Shown one piece after another: positions 2,555-60,631 of a stretch of DNA of 64,000 nucleotides; position 1 is the stretch's first letter, and the number at the start of each line of letters is the position of its first letter. Below the pieces are notes generated by a model. That model worked only from the letters and a program-made list of their open reading frames with translations, was not told the DNA's origin and made no database searches. Origin of the DNA: the human T2T-CHM13v2.0 reference genome, Homo sapiens. The translations under genes were made by a program, and so were the position numbers. The stretch lies in NCBI RefSeq assembly GCF_009914755.1, contig NC_060938.1; one strand, given 5' to 3'.

Positions 2555-2696
2555 CAGGTGCTGCTCAGGCACAGAGCAGGTATGGAGGGACAAGGAAGGC
2601 TTCCTGGAGGAGGCAGCATGAGACTCAGGTGCTGCCTGGGCACAGAGCAGGTATGGAGGGACAAGGAAGGCTTCCTGGAGGAGGCACCATGAGACC
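2555..2696. repeat. Tandem duplication, 2 x 71 bp
   Basis: caggtgctg...ggcacagagcaggtatggagggacaaggaaggcttcctggaggaggca..atgagac at 2555 and 2626. Confidence 0.9.
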
Positions 2697-4059
2697 AGGG
2701 CCTTGTGGATGAGAAGGATTTCTGGCCTTCCTTCCCAGACTGTAAGGTCCTGAGAGCAGTGATCAAGTTGGGGGACTCTGCTTCTCTTGAACAACAACCA
2801 CAGCTCCCATGTAGAGAGTACTTCAGAGTTGGGCAAGCACACTGACAAGGAGAGACTGCAGCTCTCACCCAAGCCTGCAGGGTGATTTCACTCTGCAGAG
2901 ATAGGCACTAGGGCTCACCTAGGATCTCTGAGGCTCTGTGACTTTTCCAAGGTTACCCACTCTAAAAATGACAGCCTGCATCTAGAGCCTGACCCCATGT
3001 GTTCCTCATGCTTGTAACCAGTCACGTGGCAGGAGCAGGGGTGATACTTGGTGCTGCTGTCCAGAGTTACAGACTCTTCTCCATCCCAGACCCCAGCACC
3101 CAAAGCTTGGGATGCCCACACAGATCTACCGTGCCCTCTTGAGCCTGTGGAATTTCATTCTCATTAGGCAGGTGAGGGTGGGAAAGAGTGGAGAAGGTCG
3201 GGCTTCTGCAAGTCTTAGGGATGGACCCAGGGAAAAGAGAGTTAATTCAATTCTCTTTTGCTTTTTCTTTCCCAAGAAGTCAAAGACACTCGAGTTTAGC
3301 ATGCCTGTTGTCTACTCACATAATATTTGTGGTAGAGAGAAACTCATTCATGTTAAGAAAAAAGAGTTATCAAAGATACACATTGATAGAAAACATATTG
3401 CTGGAAAAAAAAAGTAATGAATAACATTCCACATAATAGTGACTAAAAGCAAAATAGTCTTCGGCTGTGGTTACAAGTTGAGTTCAAATTGAAGGTGCTT
3501 TGTAATACTGATAAAACAGCTGTCCTTTCCAGGAAAAAATATTGTACTATATTTTATCAAGTGGCAAACGGAGGGGAAATGAACTAGGAAGAAAATCGCT
3601 CCGGGTGGATATTGTGGGTGGGTGATTGGCACCGCAGCCTTCCTGCCTCAGTCAATGTGCTGCTGACTTCAGAGAGGACCACAAGCATTGCAAAAAATGC
3701 AGGGCTTGATCAAAGGAGTGATTGTTATTCACAGCCAAGTGTTCTATCTCTGTCCTTGCACTTCTGTTGCACTTCTGTTGAAGGGGAAGCAGCTGTGACC
3801 TATGACGTTTGCCTCATGGGCTGTTTCCAGAACTTCCCCCCTTACTTCTCATGGAGTAGGACTTATGGGAACTGGATTGAGGATGCTAGACTGGGCCATG
3901 AGAGACTTCGGCACAGGCTGCCTCTCCTCTAGTGAATTAGGGAAACTTGGGCAGACCATGCCAACTCTGGCCTTGCCTGGTCCCTCTCACAGGCTGGCCT
4001 GGACTCCTCCACTGTGCAGGCTCTGCAGTGCTCCACTTCTGAGACTGCTTAAGCAAGGC

Positions 4060-8576: not shown

Positions 8577-8959
8577 ATAATAGAATGACTGTTACTGTTT
8601 TAAGCCATTATGTTTTGGGGATATTTGCTATGCAGCAAGAATAATGGATGCATATGAACAGAGAGGGGGGTTATGAGGGGAAGCTTAGGGGCTGGGCTTC
8701 ACCTCCTTGCTCTGCCACTGACTTGCTGGGTGGCCTTGGCCTACCTGTCTCCCTTTCTCTGGGCCTTGTTGTCCCCATCTGTAAAATGGACAGATCAAAT
8801 GATTTCCAACAACCCTCATAGCTCCATGTTGTGCTAATTTTCTCTGTGAGTTTTGGGAAGAGGTTAGTTCAACAACAATAATTTCAGCCATGTTCCTGGA
8901 GACTTCTTGGGTTTGAGAGACATTTGCTGAGGTATTATTATTAATAATAATAATACCTG

Positions 8960-15329: not shown

Positions 15330-15455
15330 TGGCCAGCTCATTTTCCTCTGTGGCCCATGTAAAACACACTCCTCCCTTTGCCTGAGTAACTACCTACCCT
15401 CCCTGCACCCAAGCCTTTCTCCTCCTTACCTTCTGCCCTCAGTCACTTCCCCCAA

Positions 15456-16017
15456 GAGGCTCAGGCTGTGTCCACACTGGTCCCCTCCCCCCAGGGGCTC
15501 AGGCTGTGTCCACACTGGTCCCCTCCCCCCAGAGGCTCAGGCTGTGTCTACACTGGTCCCCTCCCCCCAGAGGCTCAGGCTGTGTCTACACTGGTCCCCT
15601 CCCCCCAGGGCCTCAGGCTGTGTCCACACTGGTCTCCTCCCCCCAGGGGCTCAGGCTGTGTCCACACTGGTCCCTTTCCCTCAGGGGCTCAGACTCTGTC
15701 CACACTGGTCCCCTCCCCTCAGAGGCTCAGGCTCTGTCCACACTGGTCCCCTCCCCTCAGAGGCTCAGGCTCTGTCTACACTAGTCCCCTTCCCTCAGGG
15801 GCTAAGGCTGTGTCCACACTTGTCTCCTCCCCTCAGGGGCTCAGGCTGTGTCCACACTGGACCCCTCCCCTCAGGGACTCAGGCTCTGTCTACACTAGTC
15901 CCCTTCCCCTCAGGGACTCAGGCTGTGTCCACACTGGTCCCCTCCACCCAGGGGCTTGGGCTGTGTCCACACTGGTCCCCTCCACCCAGGGGCTCAGGCT
16001 GTGTCCACGCTGTCCCC
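15456..16017. repeat. GC-rich minisatellite (VNTR), 38-bp unit, about 14.5 copies
   Basis: Unit ggggctcaggctgtgtccacactggtcccctcccccca; ORF starts at 15468/15506/15544 confirm the 38-bp period. Confidence 0.97.
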
Positions 16018-25498: not shown

Positions 25499-28430
25499 GT
25501 CTAGCCGGGAAGGACACCCAAACAAATAATTTCAGGTCTCTGCAATGAATGCCGTGTTTGTGGTTAACATAGGCTATTGTGGGAACAGAGCGAGGGAACT
25601 TCAATAAGAACCATGGGGATGCGTGGAGGTCCCAACCGGAGTTTTCTGCAAGGGAATAAATCTGCAGTGAGGCCTGGAGGACAGAAAGAGGGGGGCAGAA
25701 TGACTTTTGGGAAGGGGGTGCAGCTGCAGTAAGGCTCAGGGTGCAAAACAACAAAAGCACATGGACCCTAACCCTAACCCATAGCACCTGGGTATTTCTA
25801 GGGATCAAGTCTGAGGAGGCACATGGGGGAGGGAGGTAAGACTGGAGATGCAGACTGAGGCCTTGTATTACACCCTAAGAAGCTTGGATTTTACTCAGAG
25901 GACAACAGGGAGCCATTGAAAGATTGTGAGCAGGGAGGGGCCATCGGCAATCAGATTTACATTTTACGTAGAATAGGAGGTGTTGCAAATCTTAGCAGGC
26001 TATAGTCAAGGTGAAACAAGGAGGTTCTGGAGAAGAAGAAATCCTTGTCCCATTCCATTTGGGAAGAGCACGTTTGCCTGCCTCTCCCTTGGGCATCTTG
26101 GGGACTGACCTTTCTGGCTGACCCCACTTTTAGCATAGACCCATTTTCCAGGCAGCTGCTTGAAGTCTCTGGTCCTGTGAGCCTCACTCACTGGGGTCAT
26201 TATCAGGCTCCTAATGAGTAGAAATGGAAGTGTGGCATGTTGAGGATAAAAATTGATTCTTGGTCACCGAGGGGCCTGGTGTCCACTGCTCAGATGTTGG
26301 CCACACAGGCCTTTTTCAGGGCGGGAGAGCAATTACATCATACCAATTTAGGCCTTTTTCCAGGGGCTGGCCTGGGAGTCACTTTGCCACTCTGGTTTTT
26401 AAGCCCGGGATTAACTGGGGACTGCTGTATGTTGAAAGGGAGTCCTGAGATGAAGCTGTGTGCGCTCTCTGTTGTTCAATAGTCCATTAGGCAGGGACTT
26501 TAGAGTCGAAGTGGTCATATGAATCTCTGGAGAGAAAACTCATTAATGGGACAGTAAGTTCCAATTAGTGGCATGGCCCAAAAGCAGCAAAGGTGCAAAA
26601 AAACTCAGTCCTCAGCTCCTCTCCCAGAGGGGCTCCATTACCCAGCTGCCTGCTCTGTGCTGCACAAACACGGTCACAAACAACACAAATATTTGCTCAG
26701 AAAATCCATCTTTGTCATCCACGTTGTCAACTGGAAGGCAAAAAACCCTTCCAACCATTGAGAGAAAATAAAAAAGGCCACTGGCTTTCACAAGGCAATT
26801 TCCTCTGTCGGCAAGGAAAGAAAAAGCCATTTAGGTGTGGCCCAGAACCGGGGAACTCTTTCTGTCTGGGCGTGTGAAGCTGTGGGATTCCAGTTCTGGG
26901 ATAAAGTGCATCATCGAAAGGGTCCATTCTTCAGCGACTGCCCCTCTTTGTTCTGCTCGGGCACCCCGAGGAAGCCCCATGGGAAGTCTCTGTGACTCCA
27001 CCCACTGAGCGGCTACAGCAGAGACGTGGCATGGAGAGTGTTTGCCTTGGCCAAGGATGAAGATATTTCTCCCTAGGGTGGTGGATCGTGGGCTTTAACT
27101 TCAGAAGGACCTGATTTCTAGCTTTCCCTGTAGCACTGATGAATCAGTTAACTGTTCCGAGTCTTCACGTGGCCATCTTCAGAATAAAGACACTGATGAC
27201 ACTGATGCAGTAAAGTTCTTGGTATATTTGCAGATGTTTGATACACACTGGCCCCCCAAGAGTGTGCTGTGGCGAAGGCGATGTGTAAACTGACATTTTT
27301 CATTCGCTTTCCCATTCATTCCATTGTCCCAAGAGCCTGCGGTTTAGGCAGGGTGTGTTTTTATTCCCATTTTAGAGATGAGGGAAGTGAGGCCCAGCAG
27401 GGGCCGCTGGTTTACTGAAGCCTTGACCCTCAGCCTTATTTTCATGACATCGCGAGGCCACCATGGTGGCTTTTGCCAGGCTCTGCAGCCTACATTGATT
27501 CTGATAGAACGTGGGCTCCTGAGGGAACCCATCAACCCTTGCCTCATAGCTGTGACAGGTTTTAGGAGGCCTGCCTTCTGGAAAGTTCCAAGTAGAGAGA
27601 GAAGCAGGACCCAAACGAGAGATGCTGAACTGAACAAAACTGCATGTGAGGCAGCGTTAAAGGCAGAGGCTTTGGGCTCAGACGGACGGGGTGTGGGTCC
27701 TGTACCCACTTCCTGGACTGTTAACAGGTCTTCTGAGCCTCAGTGGCCTTGTCAGTACCGCGGGGACAGCAGGACGTACCCTGTTGGGCTGTTGAGAGTC
27801 TAAACAAGCTCACACTCTGCAAAGGGGACACAAGAAGCAGCTGAAATGGCCCCTGTTGTTCCTGTTCTGTTTCTTTGCAAAGAGTAGCTCAGAGGACCAG
27901 ACACTGGGAGTCCCTTCCTCAGGGAGGTCCCTTTCATCCACACTAGGTCACCTCCCACCTCCCTTCTCCCTCGTCACCCTGTTCATTTCCTTCAGAGCAT
28001 TCATCACAATCCGCATTTTCCTTGATTGTATACTTATTCACTACACACTTTGGTCTCCCCCCACCGGACTGTAAACTCTGTGAGGGCAGAGGCTTTCTGT
28101 GTTTGGTTCTCTGCTGAGCCCCCAAAGCTTAAACCACTGTTTGTCCCTAGCACCTGCTCATTGACTGGTTGACTGCACCAATGAGCTGGCATTCTCGCCC
28201 ACATGTTCTTCCGGGCTCATCAAGCTGATCTCTGCTTTCTTTCCAGAGATAGTGGCCGCACCCTCTAGGCAGCCCTTCTCTCATCTCCTCCTCAGCAGAA
28301 GGGCCTGCTGATTCTGACCGGATTCCAGAATTGGGAAGCGTGGGTTCAAATCCCGGCTCTGCTGTGTGGCATCCTCTGTAAGCCTCTTTCTCTTAGGGAG
28401 AAAGACTTTCTCCTAAGTCTCTTTAGAGAC

Positions 28431-28552
28431 TTTTTTATCTGGGGTGGTCAGAGCCTCTTATGGTAGAGGAGGTATTTCAGCTTGGACATGGAGAGATGGG
28501 CCAGAGGGGTCATGGCAGGGCTAAAGGAACAGATGAGAGACAAGGACTGGTT
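28431..28552 (-). repeat. Inverted copy of 29865-29993
   Basis: Hand alignment: 5 substitutions plus one 7-bp gap over 122 bp. Confidence 0.93.
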
Positions 28553-29359
28553 ACCTATGTGCTGCATAGGTAACCACACCCCAAATTACAGAACTTAGTT
28601 AAAATACTTCCTTACTGGTTTTATGTTGCTAACTTATGAGTATATTATCGCATTGGTCCAATCTGTAACATTTGTATAAAACTTACCTTTTTTAGGTCTC
28701 CCTAAGAGAAAGAGACTTTCTCCTAAGTCTAAACCAGGAGGCTAGACTTTCTGATCCCTAAGGTCTCATCCTAGGCCTGACCATCTGTTCTACTAGAGAA
28801 CACTTGGGTGTAGGTTAAAACTGGGCAACAGGTTAAAATCCATTTTCTCACGTTCAAAGGGCAGAGGTCTCTCAGCTGCAAATCGGATAAATTCTGAGAC
28901 AAGATATTATGGGCTGTGTACTCGCTGGAGCAAATGCCTGTTTCAGTGGGTACGTGTGCTTCCTGTGCCTTAGATGCTATGATATAGCCATTTCTTGGCA
29001 TATTTTAACTTGACTGTCTCTGTCGCACAGCCATGATAATGGACAGTGAATATTACCATGACATTCTGAAATTATGTTTAGCCATGCAGCAGAAAAAGAA
29101 AATTAATTTCATTCATTGACAGGCTTGTCAATTTACTCATATTGACTTTTTGATGCCTCTACCACAGATAGCAAAGTTCATATACTGTAAAATACATCAT
29201 TATTAAGATTGTCTTGAGCCATCCTAAGTCTTTGGGAGTGGAGAGATAGGGGGCTATTTCTTCAAATCAGATAAGTATTAAAGAATATATGATCGTGTGT
29301 GTTCATATTTATATTTTATATTAAAAACACCAAAGGCATCTTGAATAAGTCATCTTTGA

Positions 29360-29640
29360 CTGGCTTCATTCCCCCACATCCAATCAGTTGTCGAGTCCTG
29401 TCAATTCTATTCCATCATATTCTTCAGTTCCATCCCCCTCTTTCTATCACTGCTACCTCTACTCTGGTTTAGGCTGTCATTACTTGATGCCCGGATGATT
29501 CCAACAGTTTCCCAGGAGGGCTTCTTGCCTCCAGTTTCTCTCCTTCCCAAATCTATCTTTCATCTTACATTCACAGCAATGATGGTGCCACTTTTCCACT
29601 CTAAAGCCTTCTCTGGCTCCCTTCAGATTAAAGTTCATCA
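29360..29640 (-). mobile_element. L2 fragment
   Basis: cacatccaatcagtt...gtcctgtcaattcta...tcttgcctccagt. Confidence 0.65.
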
Positions 29641-30085
29641 TCCAAGGGCCATTGTGGTCTGCCCTTTGCCTATAACCTCATCCTCCCTCCTCATTTGGAA
29701 CTTGTGGGTCCACCCAGAGCTCTGCTTCTGCACCTGAATCTTGTTCAGGAACTGGTTAAAGAGAGATTCCTGGGTTCCTCTGTAGCTCCTGATTCCGGAA
29801 GGGCCTGGGAAACTGTTGAAGATCTGATGTAGTGGACCCAAGGCCTGCTGATCTGGTGAAACCCAACCAGTCCTTGCCTCTCATCTGTTCCTTCAGCCCC
29901 TGCCCATGCCATGACCCCTCTGGCCCATCTCTCCATGTCCAAGCTGAAATACCTCCTCTACCGTAAGAGGCTGTGACCACCCCAGCTAAAAAAGGACCTC
30001 TTTCTTCCCTGAGCTCCCACAACCCTTACAATCTTATTGGATTACACTTTTCATCATTACCGGGATTCCCTGGCTTCCGTTAACT

Positions 30086-30741
<656 letters not shown>

Positions 30742-33045
30742 CATTCACTGAAACATAAGTGGATCTTCTATCTTTCTGTTTCTTCTGATTTTCATATCTG
30801 TGGCAGAATGGCTAGGACATTTAGTGTTTCTGCTGTTAATAACAATTCACGTTCTTTTGGCACTTTACAGTATTTTCACAATATTTTCCGTTGTCTTTAT
30901 TCACTTGGCTAAGATGGAGCGCCTCCTGTGGGTGAGCTGTGGTGATGCACCGTGGTGCTCGCACACTGAGAAGCCACTGTCTATTGGGTGAAACCATGGG
31001 TCAGCAGATACTTATCATAAAATATAGGCATTTGATGGCTGACAGTGTGATTCCCGTGTCCACCATTAAAGTTCCAATGTCTAGCACAGCGCCTGGTGCA
31101 TAGCAGGTGCTCTAATGACAATATGAGTGGCTAACATGCACTGAGTAATTACTTACAGCAAAGCAAAGTGCCCCAAATTAAAAATGAGTGGACACTTCAG
31201 GAATATCAAGAGGCTGCTCTGTCCAGCAGGGCATACAGGGGTGGAGAAGTGTGGGTGGAGGGCCAGTAAGGTTCCGTGATCTGCCCAACCACCCTGAGAG
31301 ACAGGCAGGTGTCACGAGCCCAGTGCATAAGCCTTCATTCGGTGTGGCTCATGGAGTGACAGTGGGTAACCAGGAAAGTGGCACCAACAGGCTGAGCACC
31401 ACAGGCTCTGACTTTTGGGCTGATGGACTGGACTGGACTGATGGACACTTTTCATCATCACCAGGATTCCCCTCGCTCCCATTAACTGAAATGTGAGTGG
31501 ATCTTCCTTCTTTCTGCTATTTGGACTAGCTTCCTGCGGGGAGTGGGGTAGCTCCCCAGGGCCAGAGAGGAGTCAGAGCCAACCTGAGCAAAGCCCCGTG
31601 GGCTTCTCTCCTATAAGGGGGAATTACAGGAAGCATCAGCTTGGGACTCAGGTGAGGCCCATGGGAGGCCTGAGAACCTTGCCTTCAATTAAACATCTGC
31701 CCTTCTTCTCTCTCTGGCCCGAGGATCAGAGCCCAGTGGGCTCCAGCCTCCCACTCCCCCACTCACAGAGGGTGTCAGAATACCTGGCATCTGTGGGGCT
31801 CCTGTCAGTTTGGAGGAAAATGGCACCTGGAAAAAGTCTCCAAGTGCAGTGCTGAAACATTGAATTGAATCCAGCAAAACTTGGCACCTGGTTTGCTAAT
31901 AGTGCCACAAAATGTCATAAGAGGAGAAAGTGGCCCTGAATATGGATTAGGAGGACAGGTCATAAAAGCCCTAGTGGGGATCTAGGTAAGAGCTGCATGC
32001 TGGGTGACTGACACATGGGATGGCCGTGTCTCTGTCCCTGGTGCTGACCAACCACCCCCCTTGGGTGCTGTGCCTTCCCCTTTGGTGTTGGTGACTCCCG
32101 ACCAGACATTCCCAGGAATTTCCAGCCTGGTGATAGAGTGGCAGTGAAGGAGAGTGAGGACAGGCAGATAACTTGGTAGAGGTTGCTGGAGCAGCCTAGC
32201 CATACAAAACTGTGAGGCAGAGAAAACTGACTTTTCATGTCATTGCAGTTGTCAAGAAAGTTTTTAGTTTACTCTCCAGGAATTAAGGAGAAATGTATTT
32301 CCCTGGGTCACTCAGATGCACAGTACATTGGAATTTTAATCTTGACTCCCCGAGCCTGGTGCCAGGCCACATCAATTCATCCTTCAAGGCCCAGCCTGAG
32401 TCTTTCTAGGAAGCCTTCCCTGGCTTGTCCAGGCAGAGTTAGTCATTCTGTCCCTCATGCCCCCTCCAAATTTCACTTAAATGGTCTGTCACTTTGTGCT
32501 GTGAGACCTCACCTGACAGGAACTGAACGTTATTTATTTCTGTCTTTCAAGCACGAACCCTGGGTCTGAATAGACCAACAGCCCAGAAGATGTGTGTTGG
32601 GTGAATAACCCGCCCCCCTACCCAATACTGTCCACCTGCCCATGCCCTGGGGTCATTTTCTCCCAACGTGCTCCGACACCTGCCTTGAAGGGAACAGTCC
32701 GTGGGTATCCACTCATAACCGCCATATTGTCTGATGGCTCTGGTGCATTCATGGGGTTTCCAGGGCCCTACCCTCTAGTCTGACCTTGCAGACCTTGATC
32801 CCCATGCATTGACAGGTGAGATGGAGATAGTCTTCACCTGACTGTACAGGGCAACTGAGGCTCACAGAGAGGAAGGGAGTTTTCTCAAGCCCCATGGCTC
32901 TGTAATGGTGGAACTGTGACTCTAATCTAAGCCTCAATTAAGCTGGTTGTTTCTGTTTTTTTTCTTTTCTTCAGGTTTTTTCTTTCTTTCGTTTCTTCTT
33001 TTTTCTTTTTTTTGAGGGAATTTCTAAACAGTCAATGTTACCTGA

Positions 33046-49924: not shown

Positions 49925-50689
49925 CTAATGAAGTTCTAAGACAGACCAGGCTGCGACCACTAGCGACATGAACAGGCAGCACTTACGGAATGCTTCCCCC
50001 GTGCCCGCACAGCTCTAAAGACAGCATGGGCGATCTCAGTTAGTGCTTGCAACAAGGCCATGAGGTGGGGGTTATCACTGCTGTCCCTGGTTCATGGATG
50101 GGAGTGGCAGAGGGAATGAGTCACAGACAGATTGAGAACCTGCCCCGGGGTATGGGACTGGGTTAGGGACAGGTGTGCTGACTCCAGGCTCCTGCTTATC
50201 ATTTTCTCTAGGCACCCCCATCACCTCCCACTGTATTGATGGTTCAGCTTTTCCATCATGGATGTGGGAGGGTGGTTAAAGAGCATTAACAGTAATAACA
50301 ACAGCAGCGGTAACTCGTTCTTAGGGACACTCCACCTGTACCAGACACTGTTCTGAGTGCTTTCTGCAGATCACCTTGATTGTGCCTGCATGTCTGTGCC
50401 AAATGCTGGACACGCATCTCAAAGTGGGCATAGCCTCTCCCCACCTTTTGTTCCTGCTGAGTAAACTGAGGCCCGAGGTTCTCGCAGCTAGCAAGTGCTG
50501 GCTCCTGGATTTGCCTTGGGGGCCTGCCTGGCTTTCATGCCTGGCCTCGGGCTCCACGTGCTGCTGCCCCTCAAAGTCCCCTCCCACAGGGCAGGGAGTC
50601 TAGGGTGTTCCTGCCTTCCAAAACCTAAGTTTATCCCCTGGGGGAGGTAGCAGAGCCCACTTGGTGGGCACATGAGCCCTGGGGGCAGC

Positions 50690-59603: not shown

Positions 59604-60631
59604 GATAAGGGTCCAATCACATTCTTTTGCATGTGGAAATCCAGTTTTCCTAGTACCTTTCATTGAAAAGATTGTTTTTTCCCCATGTGTCTTCTTCACA
59701 CTGTTTCAAAAATTATTTGACTATATATGTTAGGCTCTCTATTCTATTCCATTGGCCTGTGTGTCTGTTCTTATGCCAGTACCATACTGTTTTGATTGCT
59801 ATAACTTTGTAATATAATTTTAAATCAGGAAGTGTGATGCCTCCAACTTTGTTTTTCTTTCTCAGAATTGCTTTGACTATTAGGGGCCTTTTGCGACTCC
59901 ATACAAATTCGAGAATTGTTTTTTGTATTTCTGTGCAGAATATCATTGCAATTTAGGGACTGCACTGAATTTGCATATTGCTTTGGGTAGCATAGACATG
60001 TTAACATGATTAATTCTTCCAATCCATCAACATAGGATATCTTTTTGTGTGTGTGTGTTTTCTTCAATTCTTTCATTAGAATTTCAGCATACAGATCTTT
60101 TACCTCCTTGGTTCAATTCATTCTTAAATCTTTTATTTTATTTTATTTTTGATGCTATTATAAATGAAAAATTTTTTTATTTCTTTTTCAGATAGGTCAT
60201 TATTCATGTGCAGAAATGCAACTTATTTTTGTATATTGATTTTGTATCCTGCAACTTTACTAAATTTATTAGTGAATTTAGTAAATTCACTAATAAATTT
60301 ATTAATAAATCATTTAATAAATTGACAAATAATTTAAAAATACATAAATAATTAATTTATGAAATTATCTTTATTAATAATATAATATAATATAAAATTG
60401 AATAGTGTAATATAAAATATAATAAATTGTATTTATTAATTTATAAATAAATAAATGAAAAATTATAAAGAAATTAATTAATGAAAAAATTTAATAAATT
60501 TATTAGTAAATTTACTACATTTACTAAATTAGTTCTAACAATATTTTTATGGACTCTTTGTGGGGTTTATACATATGGAATCATGTCATCTGCAAATATA
60601 ATTTTATTTCTTCCTTTCTGATTTGTATGCT
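59604..60631 (-). mobile_element. L1MA: inverted 5' segment (decayed ORF2 remnant)
   Basis: Minus-strand frame gives the ORF2-like peptide [36 protein letters not shown]. Confidence 0.92.

What the first reader, a model, noticed from the sequence alone, without database searches (positions are those of the whole stretch)
28384..29993. Complex templated insertion: inverted distal copy, hairpin junctions and duplicated flank
Seen: an ~290-bp insert interrupts a MIR-like sequence and is bracketed by an 18-bp direct repeat agactttctcctaagtct (28403-28420 / 28713-28730). In order it contains: a junction hairpin aagtctct-tt-agagactt (28415-28432); a 122-bp inverted copy of sequence 1.3 kb downstream (29865-29993; 5 substitutions plus a 7-bp gap); a perfect 12-bp-arm hairpin tggttacctatg-N5-cataggtaacca (28548-28576); ~120 bp of unplaced sequence; and an 18-bp inverted copy of the left flank (28697-28714 versus 28384-28401). 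There is no polyA and no transposon terminus. Established: serial template switches with snap-back synthesis are hallmarks of FoSTeS/MMBIR and polymerase-theta end joining. Inference: a germline repair scar, plausibly ape- or catarrhine-age given ~4% divergence between the copies. The long inverted pair could also promote inversion of the intervening 1.3 kb or form dsRNA.
Basis: partly seen in the sequence, partly recalled or inferred. Interest (0 to 1): 0.8.

Follow-up and report, generated by a model that had tools for sequence, protein, structure and literature searches.

The report
Two-donor templated insertion repair scar
An old DNA-repair scar inside a MIR-like repeat on human chromosome 14 was patched with a flipped copy of sequence 1.3 kb away plus a 136-base copy from chromosome 4, which makes it a clear but not unprecedented example of copy-and-paste break repair in the germline.

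Summary

The main new result concerns the "~120 bp of unplaced sequence". Window 28560-28695 matches chr4:48,631,567-48,631,702 (minus strand) of the same assembly at 132 of 136 bases.

The 310 added bases are therefore a mosaic:
- a duplicated 18-bp flank;
- a 9-nt filler;
- a 123-bp inverted copy of 29865-29994;
- a 7-nt fold-back filler that creates the 12-bp-arm hairpin;
- the 136-bp chr4 copy;
- one extra base;
- an 18-nt inverted copy of the left flank.

The insert occurs once in the genome, and both donors are single-copy. Two other MIR-like copies in the window align straight across the insertion point.

The copies differ from their donors at 9 of 259 positions. That makes the event old and inherited.

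In the insert's orientation, both donors carry the same 10-nt word at their outer ends, which is unlikely by chance (23 of 100,000 random pairs). This is not explained.

Best reading: one complex templated insertion made by serial microhomology-primed template switching during break or fork repair. It is a new member of a known kind. No primate orthologues could be examined, so the empty site and the age remain inferred.

The parts
28320..28420 (+). Left part of the interrupted MIR-like SINE (tRNA-like head, then body)
   Evidence: The tRNA-like block matches 3 other copies in the window. The family name MIR is recalled, not tested against Dfam.
28384..28401 (+). X: the left-flank segment that reappears inverted at the right end of the insert
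   Evidence: I3: 22 nt, 95%. (18 nt exact).
28403..28420 (+). Y, left copy of the 18-bp duplicated flank
   Evidence: (D1).
28421..28429 (+). Junction filler J1 (9 nt). Together with the end of Y it forms the 8-nt-arm hairpin at 28415-28432. Its last bases overlap the start of the next piece by 3-4 nt (CTT/CTTT).
   Evidence: Only 6-nt matches to the flank were found, so the template of J1 is not securely assigned.
28430..28552 (-). A': inverted copy of the local donor 29865-29994
   Evidence: 118 of 123 positions identical plus one 7-base gap. Homology stops abruptly at both ends.
28553..28559 (+). Junction filler J2 (7 nt). It is an exact inverted copy of 28565-28571 inside the chr4-derived piece.
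   Evidence: matches chr4 plus strand 48,631,691-48,631,697..
28548..28576 (.). Perfect 12-bp-arm hairpin with a 5-nt loop, spanning the A'/J2/B' junction. The last 5 nt of A' (TGGTT) are complementary to AACCA at 28572-28576, giving the junction a 5-nt microhomology.
   Evidence: The native chr4 donor does not contain this hairpin.
28560..28695 (+). B': copy of chr4:48,631,567-48,631,702 (minus strand of the assembly)
   Evidence: 132 of 136 identical. In the reciprocal search with 641 bp of chr4, homology is limited to these 136 bp.
28696..28696 (+). Single base (G) between B' and the inverted flank copy, with no assignable template
28697..28714 (-). Inverted copy of X. It overlaps the right copy of Y by 2 nt (AG), or 5 of 6 nt if one mismatch is allowed.
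28713..28730 (+). Y, right copy of the 18-bp duplicated flank
28731..28830 (+). Right part of the interrupted MIR-like SINE
   Evidence: 2 of 3 other copies align without a gap across the point where 28420 meets 28731.
29865..29994 (+). Local donor of A', 1.3 kb downstream, in opposite orientation to the copy
   Evidence: The flanks are single-copy in the genome search.
29986..29995 (-). 10-nt word at the outer end of the local donor. Read in the insert's orientation, it is identical to the last 10 nt of the chr4 donor (28686-28695 in the insert).
   Evidence: In random 20-mer pairs from the window, a shared word of 10 or more occurs in 23 of 100,000.
28686..28695 (+). The same 10-nt word (CCTTTTTTAG) at the end of B'

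Best explanation
This is a single, ancient, inherited templated insertion made while a break or collapsed replication fork inside a MIR-like element was being repaired.

Shown:
- 310 bases were added at one point of the element.
- The added DNA consists of a second copy of an 18-bp flank, a 123-bp inverted copy of sequence 1.3 kb downstream, a 136-bp copy of chr4:48.63 Mb, an 18-nt inverted copy of the left flank, and fillers of 9, 7 and 1 nt.
- Both donors are still intact, so the process was copy-and-paste.

Inferred path, read on the + strand:
1. A 3' end copied the 18 bp of Y from an intact template and then dissociated.
2. It made a short fold-back (J1).
3. It re-primed through 3-4 nt of T-rich homology on the opposite strand 1.3 kb downstream and copied about 130 nt.
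4. It dissociated and annealed by 5 nt (TGGTT/AACCA) to a chr4 duplex, copied 7 nt of one strand, then switched to the other strand and copied 136 nt. This step created the perfect 12-bp hairpin.
5. The other broken end had meanwhile been extended by an 18-nt copy of the left flank. That copy runs up to the position next to the break.
6. The two ends were joined with 0-1 nt of homology.

This behaves like microhomology-mediated break-induced replication / FoSTeS, finished by end joining. The short flank-templated fillers are of the kind attributed to polymerase theta or to fold-back synthesis. Which polymerase acted cannot be read from the sequence.
For: - The genome-wide search with the insert finds 3 places only: the insert, the chr4 donor and the local donor.
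- Reciprocal searches with donor flanks show homology confined to 130 and 136 bp, and the flanks are single-copy.
- An exact-match parse of 28403-28745 against the reconstructed empty site and the two donors yields the segment order given above.
- Junction homologies are visible directly in the sequence: TGGTT/AACCA plus a 7-nt inverted filler at A'/B'; CTT(T) at J1/A'; AG at inverted-X/Y.
- The 12-bp hairpin is absent from the native chr4 donor, so the event created it.
- The MIR-like host is continuous across the insertion point in 2 of 3 comparison copies.
- The two copies are equally diverged from their donors: 5 of 123 versus 4 of 136, Fisher p = 0.74. This fits one event.
- 3.5% divergence means the event is old and inherited, not a cell-line artefact.
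- Published comparators, as I read them:
  - Distant templated insertions of 73-414 bp at human breaks, and the TSIP classes (PMC5110952, parts 1-2 of the text).
  - Yeast break insertions with fold-back copies of the flank of about 5-34 bp, distant donors of median 88-187 bp, 5-7% multi-fragment events, and longer homology between fragments (median 6) than to the break ends (median 2) (PMC11724301, abstract and sections 18-20).
Against: - No orthologous empty site was seen, because no primate genome is available here. The pre-insertion state is inferred only from the flank duplication and from 2 of 3 diverged MIR-like copies.
- An 18-bp flank duplication is in the range left by L1 endonuclease, and it is not a feature of class 2 templated insertions as defined in PMC5110952.
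- The order of the switches is not unique. The same product can be read on the other strand.
- J1 has no secure template (only 6-nt matches).
- The 10-nt identity of the two donors' outer ends is not predicted by the simple linear path.
- DNA and RNA templates cannot be distinguished.
- The left flank already contains overlapping short hairpins (28385-28405 and 28397-28413). Part of the flank symmetry may therefore predate the event.
Confidence: 0.63

Rival explanations
1. Capture of a pre-assembled extrachromosomal piece. In this reading a chimeric single-stranded or double-stranded fragment of about 265 nt was made elsewhere by microhomology-mediated template switching, including the fold-back at the chr4 end. 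It contained local chr14 plus chr4 sequence. It was then ligated into a two-ended break by NHEJ or alternative end joining. The flank-derived inverted piece would come from a local fold-back at one break end.
For: - Both long pieces are 123-136 bp, inside the size range of captured fragments: 73-414 bp in human cells (PMC5110952) and medians of 88-187 bp in yeast (PMC11724301, section 18).
- Homology is longer at the fragment-fragment junction (5 nt plus a 7-nt fold-back) than at the outer junctions (0-4 nt). This is the pattern reported in PMC11724301, section 19.
- Fold-back within a single extrachromosomal ssDNA was shown experimentally there (section 20).
- The shared 10-nt word at the two outer ends is easier to accommodate if the donors had been joined or cycled before integration.
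Against: - One donor lies only 1.3 kb from the break in cis. That is what a searching broken end would find, and it is not expected for a random free fragment.
- Simple ligation does not explain the 18-bp duplication of Y.
- No trace of such a chimeric molecule remains elsewhere in the genome.
Confidence: 0.17
2. Reverse-transcriptase-mediated patch. This could be L1 ORF2p acting in trans, or endonuclease-independent retro-insertion. A cDNA would be primed at the break, jump between two RNA templates, snap back at an RNA end, and then be sealed into the break.
For: - The 18-bp duplication is within the usual L1 target-site duplication range.
- The + strand reads GTCT/AAAC at the right edge of Y, a partial match to the 5'-TTTT/A-3' preference quoted in PMC5110952.
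- The first long piece begins at a T6 run, as would happen with priming on an internal A6 tract.
- The chr4 donor lies on the gene-sense side, 58 kb upstream of the most 5' detected exon of the MOR2-PAG1-family gene on chr4. Those exons are at 48,507,253-48,573,525 on the minus strand. From recall this is FRYL and the donor lies within its long 5' introns, which would make it transcribed.
- PMC5110952 reports that templated insertions are enriched for transcribed sequence and are reduced by RT inhibitors.
- Hairpin self-priming at template ends is a classical RT behaviour (recalled).
Against: - There is no poly(A) tract and no AATAAA or ATTAAA on either strand. The only A6 runs are copied from the donors.
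- There is no splice junction.
- If the + strand were the first-strand cDNA primed at the GTCT/A nick, the chr4 template would have to be antisense to the gene.
- On the other strand the nick site does not fit (GTCT/TT).
- The 18-nt inverted flank copy requires a DNA template.
Confidence: 0.12
3. Two or more separate events. Examples are a first insertion of the local inverted copy with flank duplication followed by a later insertion of the chr4 piece, or later small template-switch mutations that sharpened the hairpins.
For: - The confidence range on age is wide (1.6-6.6%), so events a few million years apart cannot be separated.
- The left flank carries further overlapping 8-nt-arm hairpins, suggesting the site may be prone to repeated small template switches.
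Against: - The left arm of the 12-bp hairpin is made of the last 5 nt of the local copy plus a 7-nt filler templated from the chr4 piece. A second break would have had to fall exactly at the end of the first insert.
- The divergences of the two pieces do not differ (Fisher p = 0.74).
Confidence: 0.05
4. This is not an insertion event at all. The similar pieces would be independent copies of a dispersed repeat family, a segmental duplication, or an assembly artefact.
For: - The local donor region resembles, from recall only, the tail of an ancient LINE/SINE family.
- The genome search skips very common words, so its counts are lower bounds (tool note).
Against: - 96-97% identity over pieces with abrupt ends.
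- Only 3 places genome-wide, with single-copy donor flanks.
- All other pairs of 100 bp or more within the window are below 90% identity.
- The copies differ from their donors at 9 positions, so they are not a collapse or mis-join of reads from the donors.
Confidence: 0.02

Closest known systems
Templated sequence insertions / templated sequence insertion polymorphisms (Onozawa and Aplan; PMC5110952, parts 1-2 of the text read)
   Same: - Sequence copied from a distant chromosome is pasted into a break while the donor stays intact.
- The size is within the reported 73-414 bp.
- The junctions have microhomology and a stray base, as in class 2.
- The event is heritable.
   Different: - It has an 18-bp flank duplication, a class 1 feature, but no poly(A) or polyadenylation signal, which matches class 2. 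It therefore fits neither class cleanly.
- It combines a trans donor with an inverted cis donor and flank-derived inverted fillers.
- It is old and probably fixed rather than polymorphic. Polymorphism was not tested.
[quoted passage not shown]
   Same: - Several consecutive template switches at 2-5 nt microhomologies.
- A nearby cis template used in inverted orientation.
- Return upstream of the departure point, which duplicates the flank.
- Donors are unchanged.
   Different: - The pieces are a hundred-odd bases rather than kilobases to megabases (genomic disorders) or tens of bases (MMB-TIs).
- One donor is on another chromosome.
Fold-back and distant inverted insertions at yeast double-strand breaks (PMC11724301; abstract and sections 18-20 read)
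   Same: - An inverted copy of the flank next to the break (18 nt here, about 5-34 bp there).
- Distant donors of about 90-190 bp.
- Multi-fragment inserts.
- A short inverted piece from the same distant locus, separated by a few nt from the main piece (7+5 nt arm and 5-nt gap here, against gaps of about 2-20 bp there).
- Longer homology between fragments than at the break ends.
   Different: - That work used yeast mutants and induced breaks, whereas this is a natural primate germline event.
- Here the two long fragments come from different loci.
Polymerase-theta-mediated end joining with templated fillers, and SD-MMEJ (PMC4912351, PMC5068794, PMC5728401: seen only in the search listing)
   Same: Short fillers (J1, J2, inverted X) are copied from sequence within tens of bases of the junction, in direct or inverted orientation, as if made by repeated anneal-extend-dissociate cycles.
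   Different: - Fillers of that pathway are typically short.
- The two 123-136-bp pieces, one of them from another chromosome, are beyond what is usually ascribed to it.
- The enzyme cannot be identified from sequence.
Short-range template-switch mutations (Löytynoja and Goldman; PMC5453318 and PMC7954356 seen in the listing)
   Same: It creates perfect hairpins and inverted copies in one step, and the model is replication-based.
   Different: Those events replace sequence in place using a template within a few hundred bases and return. Here there is a net gain of 310 bases, two long donors, and one donor in trans.

Membership tests
Class 1 TSIP (L1 ORF2p-mediated; criteria from PMC5110952) | Target-site duplication of at least 5 bp | tested here: met
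   Exact 18-bp duplication at 28403-28420 / 28713-28730.
Class 1 TSIP (L1 ORF2p-mediated; criteria from PMC5110952) | Non-templated poly(A) tract of 10-40 A | tested here: not met
   The longest A run on either strand is 6, and both such runs are copied from the donors.
Class 1 TSIP (L1 ORF2p-mediated; criteria from PMC5110952) | Polyadenylation signal 10-20 nt upstream of the tract | tested here: not met
   No AATAAA or ATTAAA on either strand of 28421-28712.
Class 1 TSIP (L1 ORF2p-mediated; criteria from PMC5110952) | Insertion at a 5'-TTTT/A-3' site | tested here: inconclusive
   The + strand reads GTCT/AAAC at the right edge of Y, a partial match. The other strand reads GTCT/TT at the left edge, which does not match.
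Class 2 TSIP / templated sequence insertion at a break | Insert copied from a distant genomic region with the donor intact | tested here: met
   The chr4 donor is present, single-copy and continuous with its flanks.
Class 2 TSIP / templated sequence insertion at a break | No target-site duplication, and junctions with microdeletion, microhomology or untemplated bases | tested here: inconclusive
   Microhomologies of 0-5 nt and one stray base are present. An 18-bp flank duplication is also present, and no deletion can be assessed without an outgroup.
MMBIR / FoSTeS complex rearrangement | Two or more template switches in one event, with microhomology at the junctions | tested here: met
   At least five junctions. 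Homologies are CTT(T), TGGTT/AACCA and AG. A single event is supported by the shared junction hairpin and the equal divergence.
MMBIR / FoSTeS complex rearrangement | Templates copied, not moved, and often nearby and inverted | tested here: met
   The local donor at 29865-29994 is intact and in opposite orientation.
MMBIR / FoSTeS complex rearrangement | Arises from a collapsed fork or one-ended break by replicative synthesis | not testable with these tools
   Sequence alone does not distinguish replicative from two-ended break repair.
Polymerase-theta end-joining scar | Short fillers templated from flanking sequence close to the junction | tested here: met
   J2 is an exact inverted copy of 28565-28571. 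Inverted X is an exact copy of 28384-28401. J1 has only 6-nt matches.
Polymerase-theta end-joining scar | Dependence on POLQ | not testable with these tools
Transposable element insertion | Multi-copy family with defined termini (TIR, LTR or poly(A)) | tested here: not met
   The insert matches only its two donors genome-wide. It has no poly(A), and reading its ends shows no terminal inverted repeat.
Short-range template-switch mutation (four-point model) | One switch-and-return to a nearby template, replacing sequence in place | tested here: not met
   Net gain of 310 bases, two long donors, one of them on another chromosome.
MIR SINE (host element) | tRNA-like head followed by the conserved core, continuous across the insertion point | tested here: inconclusive
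   The head matches 3 other copies in the window. 2 of those 3 align across the 28420/28731 join. No repeat library was available, so the name is recalled.

The most novel reading that the evidence does not exclude
The two donors end in the same 10-nt word, and they are also linked by the fold-back junction. Together they close into a cycle of about 263 nt, and the insert is almost exactly one turn of that cycle plus 9 nt.

The boldest reading not excluded is that the template was a small chimeric circle or cyclically copied intermediate, made from a chr14 fragment and a chr4 fragment (microDNA-like), and that one turn of it was copied or integrated into the germline.

A milder version is that one donor was a physical fragment with an end at that word. 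It would have been visited more than once and left each time at the same point.
Probability: 0.12. Interest if true: 0.6.

Novelty: new member of a known kind. Interest (0 to 1): 0.35.

Why it matters
This is a well-preserved natural record of how a primate germline break was patched. It used a cis donor in inverted orientation and a donor on another chromosome within a single event, and five or more junctions are still legible after roughly 3.5% divergence.

It shows that complete assemblies allow the "unplaced" parts of such scars to be traced to their donors, so events of this kind could be mined systematically.

It left two structures with possible later consequences:
- a perfect 12-bp hairpin;
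- a 123-bp inverted repeat pair at 96% identity, 1.3 kb apart.

No annotated gene or functional element overlaps the site, so no phenotypic effect is indicated.

Tried and rejected
- **BLAST of the empty site.** A BLAST of the computed empty site against the rest of the window found only the tRNA-like head of three MIR-like copies. Continuity across the join had to be judged from a MAFFT alignment. In that alignment 1 of the 3 copies (37536) did not align convincingly.
- **Age of the local donor's surroundings.** I tried to show that the local donor sits inside an older repeat continuing across both copy boundaries. A sensitive within-window BLAST of 29650-30200 gave a single 43-bp match outside the donor, so this was not shown. 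The own-genome search detects only near-identical DNA. The direction of copying therefore rests on the insert's position inside the MIR-like element.
- **Alternative source for J2.** I considered that the 7-nt filler comes from a near-repeat about 25 nt upstream of the chr4 donor. A local alignment did not extend into it, and the native donor does not fold into the hairpin. Rejected.
- **A possible third copy of Y.** A degenerate copy at about 28744-28766 was seen by eye. The repeat finder did not report it, and it lies in the MIR-like body. I treat it as chance or family-internal similarity.
- **Rfam.** The scan of 27500-30600 found nothing inside the finding, only Alu/SRP-like matches from 30236 onwards.
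- **L1-mediated class 1 insertion.** Rejected as a family assignment because there is no poly(A) and no signal.
- **Not possible here.** Primate orthologues, human pangenome or structural-variant catalogues, and a repeat library (Dfam/RepeatMasker) are not available through these tools. The empty-allele, polymorphism and inversion questions remain open.

Full report
**Observation**

- The 18-bp direct repeat 28403-28420 / 28713-28730 is exact. It is the end of a 32-nt direct repeat at 84% (D1).
- 28384-28401 recurs inverted at 28697-28714. This is exact over 18 nt and 95% over 22 nt (I3).
- 28430-28552 is the reverse complement of 29865-29994, with 5 mismatches and one 7-base gap.
- The hairpins at 28415-28432 (8-nt arms, 2-nt loop) and 28548-28576 (12-nt arms, 5-nt loop) are perfect.

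**Is it more than chance?**
- In a self-BLAST of the whole window, the 28430/29865 pair is the only pair of at least 100 bp at 90% identity or more. Every other pair of that length is below 90%.
- Perfect hairpins with arms of 11 nt or more and loops of 12 nt or less occur at only 4 distinct places in 64 kb. The other three are A+T-rich.
- Folded as DNA, the 12-bp hairpin gives -11.4 kcal/mol, z = -5.0, with 0 of 200 shuffles as stable.
- The 8-nt-arm hairpin is unremarkable by itself, since the window has 38 entries of that class. The left-flank fold is only mildly unusual (z = -2.3, 5 of 200 shuffles).

**The unplaced stretch has a donor**

A search of the window's own assembly with the 292-bp insert returned three places only:
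- the insert itself;
- the local donor;
- chr4:48,631,567-48,631,702 on the minus strand.

The chr4 match covers window 28560-28695 with 132 of 136 identical bases and no gap.

The reciprocal search with 641 bp around the chr4 segment found only itself and the same 136 bp of the window. A search with 321 bp around the local donor found only itself and 28430-28552.

Both donors are therefore single-copy, are intact, and share with the insert nothing beyond the copied piece. The tool warns that it skips very common words and that its counts are lower bounds. Even so, a common repeat family would not give two isolated 96-97% matches with abrupt ends.

**Anatomy**

I made an exact-match parse of 28403-28745 against three templates: the reconstructed empty site, the local donor region and the chr4 region. 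It gives this order:

| Segment | Coordinates | Content |
|---|---|---|
| Y, left copy | 28403-28420 | 18-bp duplicated flank |
| J1 | 28421-28429 | 9-nt filler |
| A' | 28430-28552 | inverted copy of the local donor |
| J2 | 28553-28559 | 7-nt filler, exact inverted copy of 28565-28571 within the chr4 piece |
| B' | 28560-28695 | copy of the chr4 donor |
| (one base) | 28696 | G with no template |
| Inverted X | 28697-28714 | inverted copy of the left flank; overlaps Y by 2 nt |
| Y, right copy | 28713-28730 | followed by the flank |

The net gain is 310 bases.

Junction homologies, read:
- The last 5 nt of A' (TGGTT) are complementary to AACCA at 28572-28576. With J2 they form the 12-nt left arm of the hairpin.
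- J1 ends in CTT(T), which overlaps the start of A'.
- Inverted X and Y share AG, or 5 of 6 nt with one mismatch.
- B' meets inverted X with a single stray base.

The native chr4 sequence does not contain the 12-bp hairpin, so the event created it.

J1 has only 6-nt matches. I do not assign its template with confidence.

**Host element and empty site**

The left flank carries a tRNA-like block that matches three other elements in the window. In a MAFFT alignment of those three with the computed empty site, two of them (at 50683 and 34828) run without a gap across the point where 28420 meets 28731. The third aligns poorly.

This supports an insertion into a once-continuous SINE. The name MIR comes from my recollection of the family. 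No repeat library was available to test it.

**Age and heritability**

The copies differ from their donors at 9 of 259 aligned positions: 5 of 123 local and 4 of 136 chr4. That is 3.5%, with a Poisson 95% range of 1.6-6.6%. The two pieces do not differ in divergence (Fisher p = 0.74). Two of the nine differences are CpG/TpG differences.

A recent somatic or cell-line event would be identical to its donors, so this one is old and inherited.

Against recalled human-primate divergences, about 3.5% corresponds roughly to the great-ape or ape stem. The range runs from about the gorilla split to about the Old World monkey split.

**Context of the chr4 donor**

Pfam MOR2-PAG1 N-terminal and C-terminal domain exons lie on chr4 minus strand at 48,549,499-48,573,525 and at 48,507,253-48,507,609. 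A paralogous set lies on chr13.

The donor lies 58 kb upstream of the most 5' detected exon, in the gene's sense. The + strand of the insert has the gene-sense orientation. From recall the gene is FRYL and its 5' introns extend that far. I could not verify this here.

**Mechanism**

The mosaic of copy-and-paste pieces, the short homologies at the joins, the fillers templated from adjacent sequence in inverted orientation, and the flank duplication are what serial template switching during break or fork repair produces. The most likely path, in my judgement, is set out under Best explanation. Its steps are inferred and only the product is shown.

One detail favours a break close to 28402/28403. 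The inverted flank copy reproduces 28384-28401, ending next to that position, as if the copying ran off the end of the left fragment.

Published systems behave the same way.
- Human break-repair assays and polymorphisms contain distant templated inserts of 73-414 bp, and fall into class 1 (L1-type) and class 2 (end-joining-type) junctions (PMC5110952, parts 1-2 read).
- Yeast breaks acquire the following (PMC11724301, abstract and sections 18-20 read):
  - fold-back copies of the flank of about 5-34 bp;
  - distant donors of median 88-187 bp;
  - 5-7% multi-fragment inserts;
  - short inverted pieces from the same distant locus;
  - longer homology between fragments than to the break ends.

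The present case matches that second description closely, except that its two long fragments come from different loci.

It fits neither TSIP class cleanly. It has a class 1-type duplication but no poly(A) or signal, and it has class 2-type junctions.

**An unexplained regularity**

Read in the insert's orientation, the local donor begins with the same 10-nt word that ends the chr4 donor. The word is the reverse complement of 29986-29995 in the local donor and 28686-28695 in the insert. In 100,000 random pairs of 20-mers from the window, a shared word of 10 or more occurred 23 times. The test is post hoc, and several boundary pairings could have been examined.

These two ends are not adjacent in the insert. 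Together with the fold-back junction they would close the two donors into a cycle of about 263 nt, and the insert is about one turn of it. Possible readings, none tested:
- One donor was a fragment, or carried a nick or barrier, at that point. It would have been visited more than once and left each time at the same place.
- The nascent end re-annealed to the first donor when it regained this word, which ended the excursion.
- The template was a small chimeric circle.

Weaker coincidences are a 6-nt word (AACCAG) shared by the right flank start and the local donor boundary, and AAACC following the chr4 donor as it follows Y. Each is within chance (6-nt sharing in 5.9% of random pairs).

**Rivals**
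- Capture of a pre-assembled chimeric fragment, and a reverse-transcriptase-mediated patch, both remain possible. Neither is excluded by sequence.
- Separate events are unlikely, because the junction hairpin uses the last bases of one piece and a filler templated from the other.
- Independent repeat copies and an assembly artefact are contradicted.

**What was not done**

No primate orthologue, human variation catalogue or repeat library could be consulted. The inversion and dsRNA suggestions were not tested. Rfam shows no known RNA family in the finding, and the hub annotation lists no gene there.

**Verdict**

This is a real and well-resolved complex templated insertion with one cis donor and one trans donor. 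It is a new example of a known kind of repair scar. It is of moderate interest mainly as a clean germline specimen and for the shared-end regularity.

Noticed in passing
window 28385-28413: The left flank itself holds two overlapping perfect 8-nt-arm hairpins (28385-28405 with a 5-nt loop, 28397-28413 with a 1-nt loop). The host sequence next to the break is therefore a zig-zag of short inverted repeats. Whether these predate the event or belong to it cannot be told without an outgroup.
   Followed up: partly
window 28731-28737, 29865-29870, and L002 just past the chr4 donor: The right flank starts with AAACCAG. The local donor boundary carries AACCAG, and the chr4 sequence immediately after the copied segment starts with AAACC. 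These are possible extra microhomologies, but each is within chance expectation.
   Followed up: partly
window 15446-15561 and 15903-16017: A direct repeat pair of 116 nt at 89.7% identity, 457 bp apart. It is the second most similar long pair in the window.
   Followed up: no
window 60256-60301: A perfect A+T-rich palindrome with 20-nt arms and a 1-nt loop (60261-60301). It is overlapped by a second hairpin with 11-nt arms (60256-60285). This may be another template-switch product.
   Followed up: no
window 8930-8958: A perfect 14-nt-arm palindrome made of ATT/AAT repeats.
   Followed up: no
window 2555-2699: Two adjacent units of about 73 nt at 93% identity, forming a tandem duplication.
   Followed up: no
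window 30236-30519: SRP-RNA-like and mir-1268-like matches below the gathering threshold, typical of an Alu element, just downstream of the local donor. This coincides with the masked stretch 30190-30587.
   Followed up: no
window 30044-30085 and 31445-31487: A 43-nt match at 86% identity between the region just beyond the local donor and a site 1.4 kb further on. It is probably a shared old repeat.
   Followed up: no
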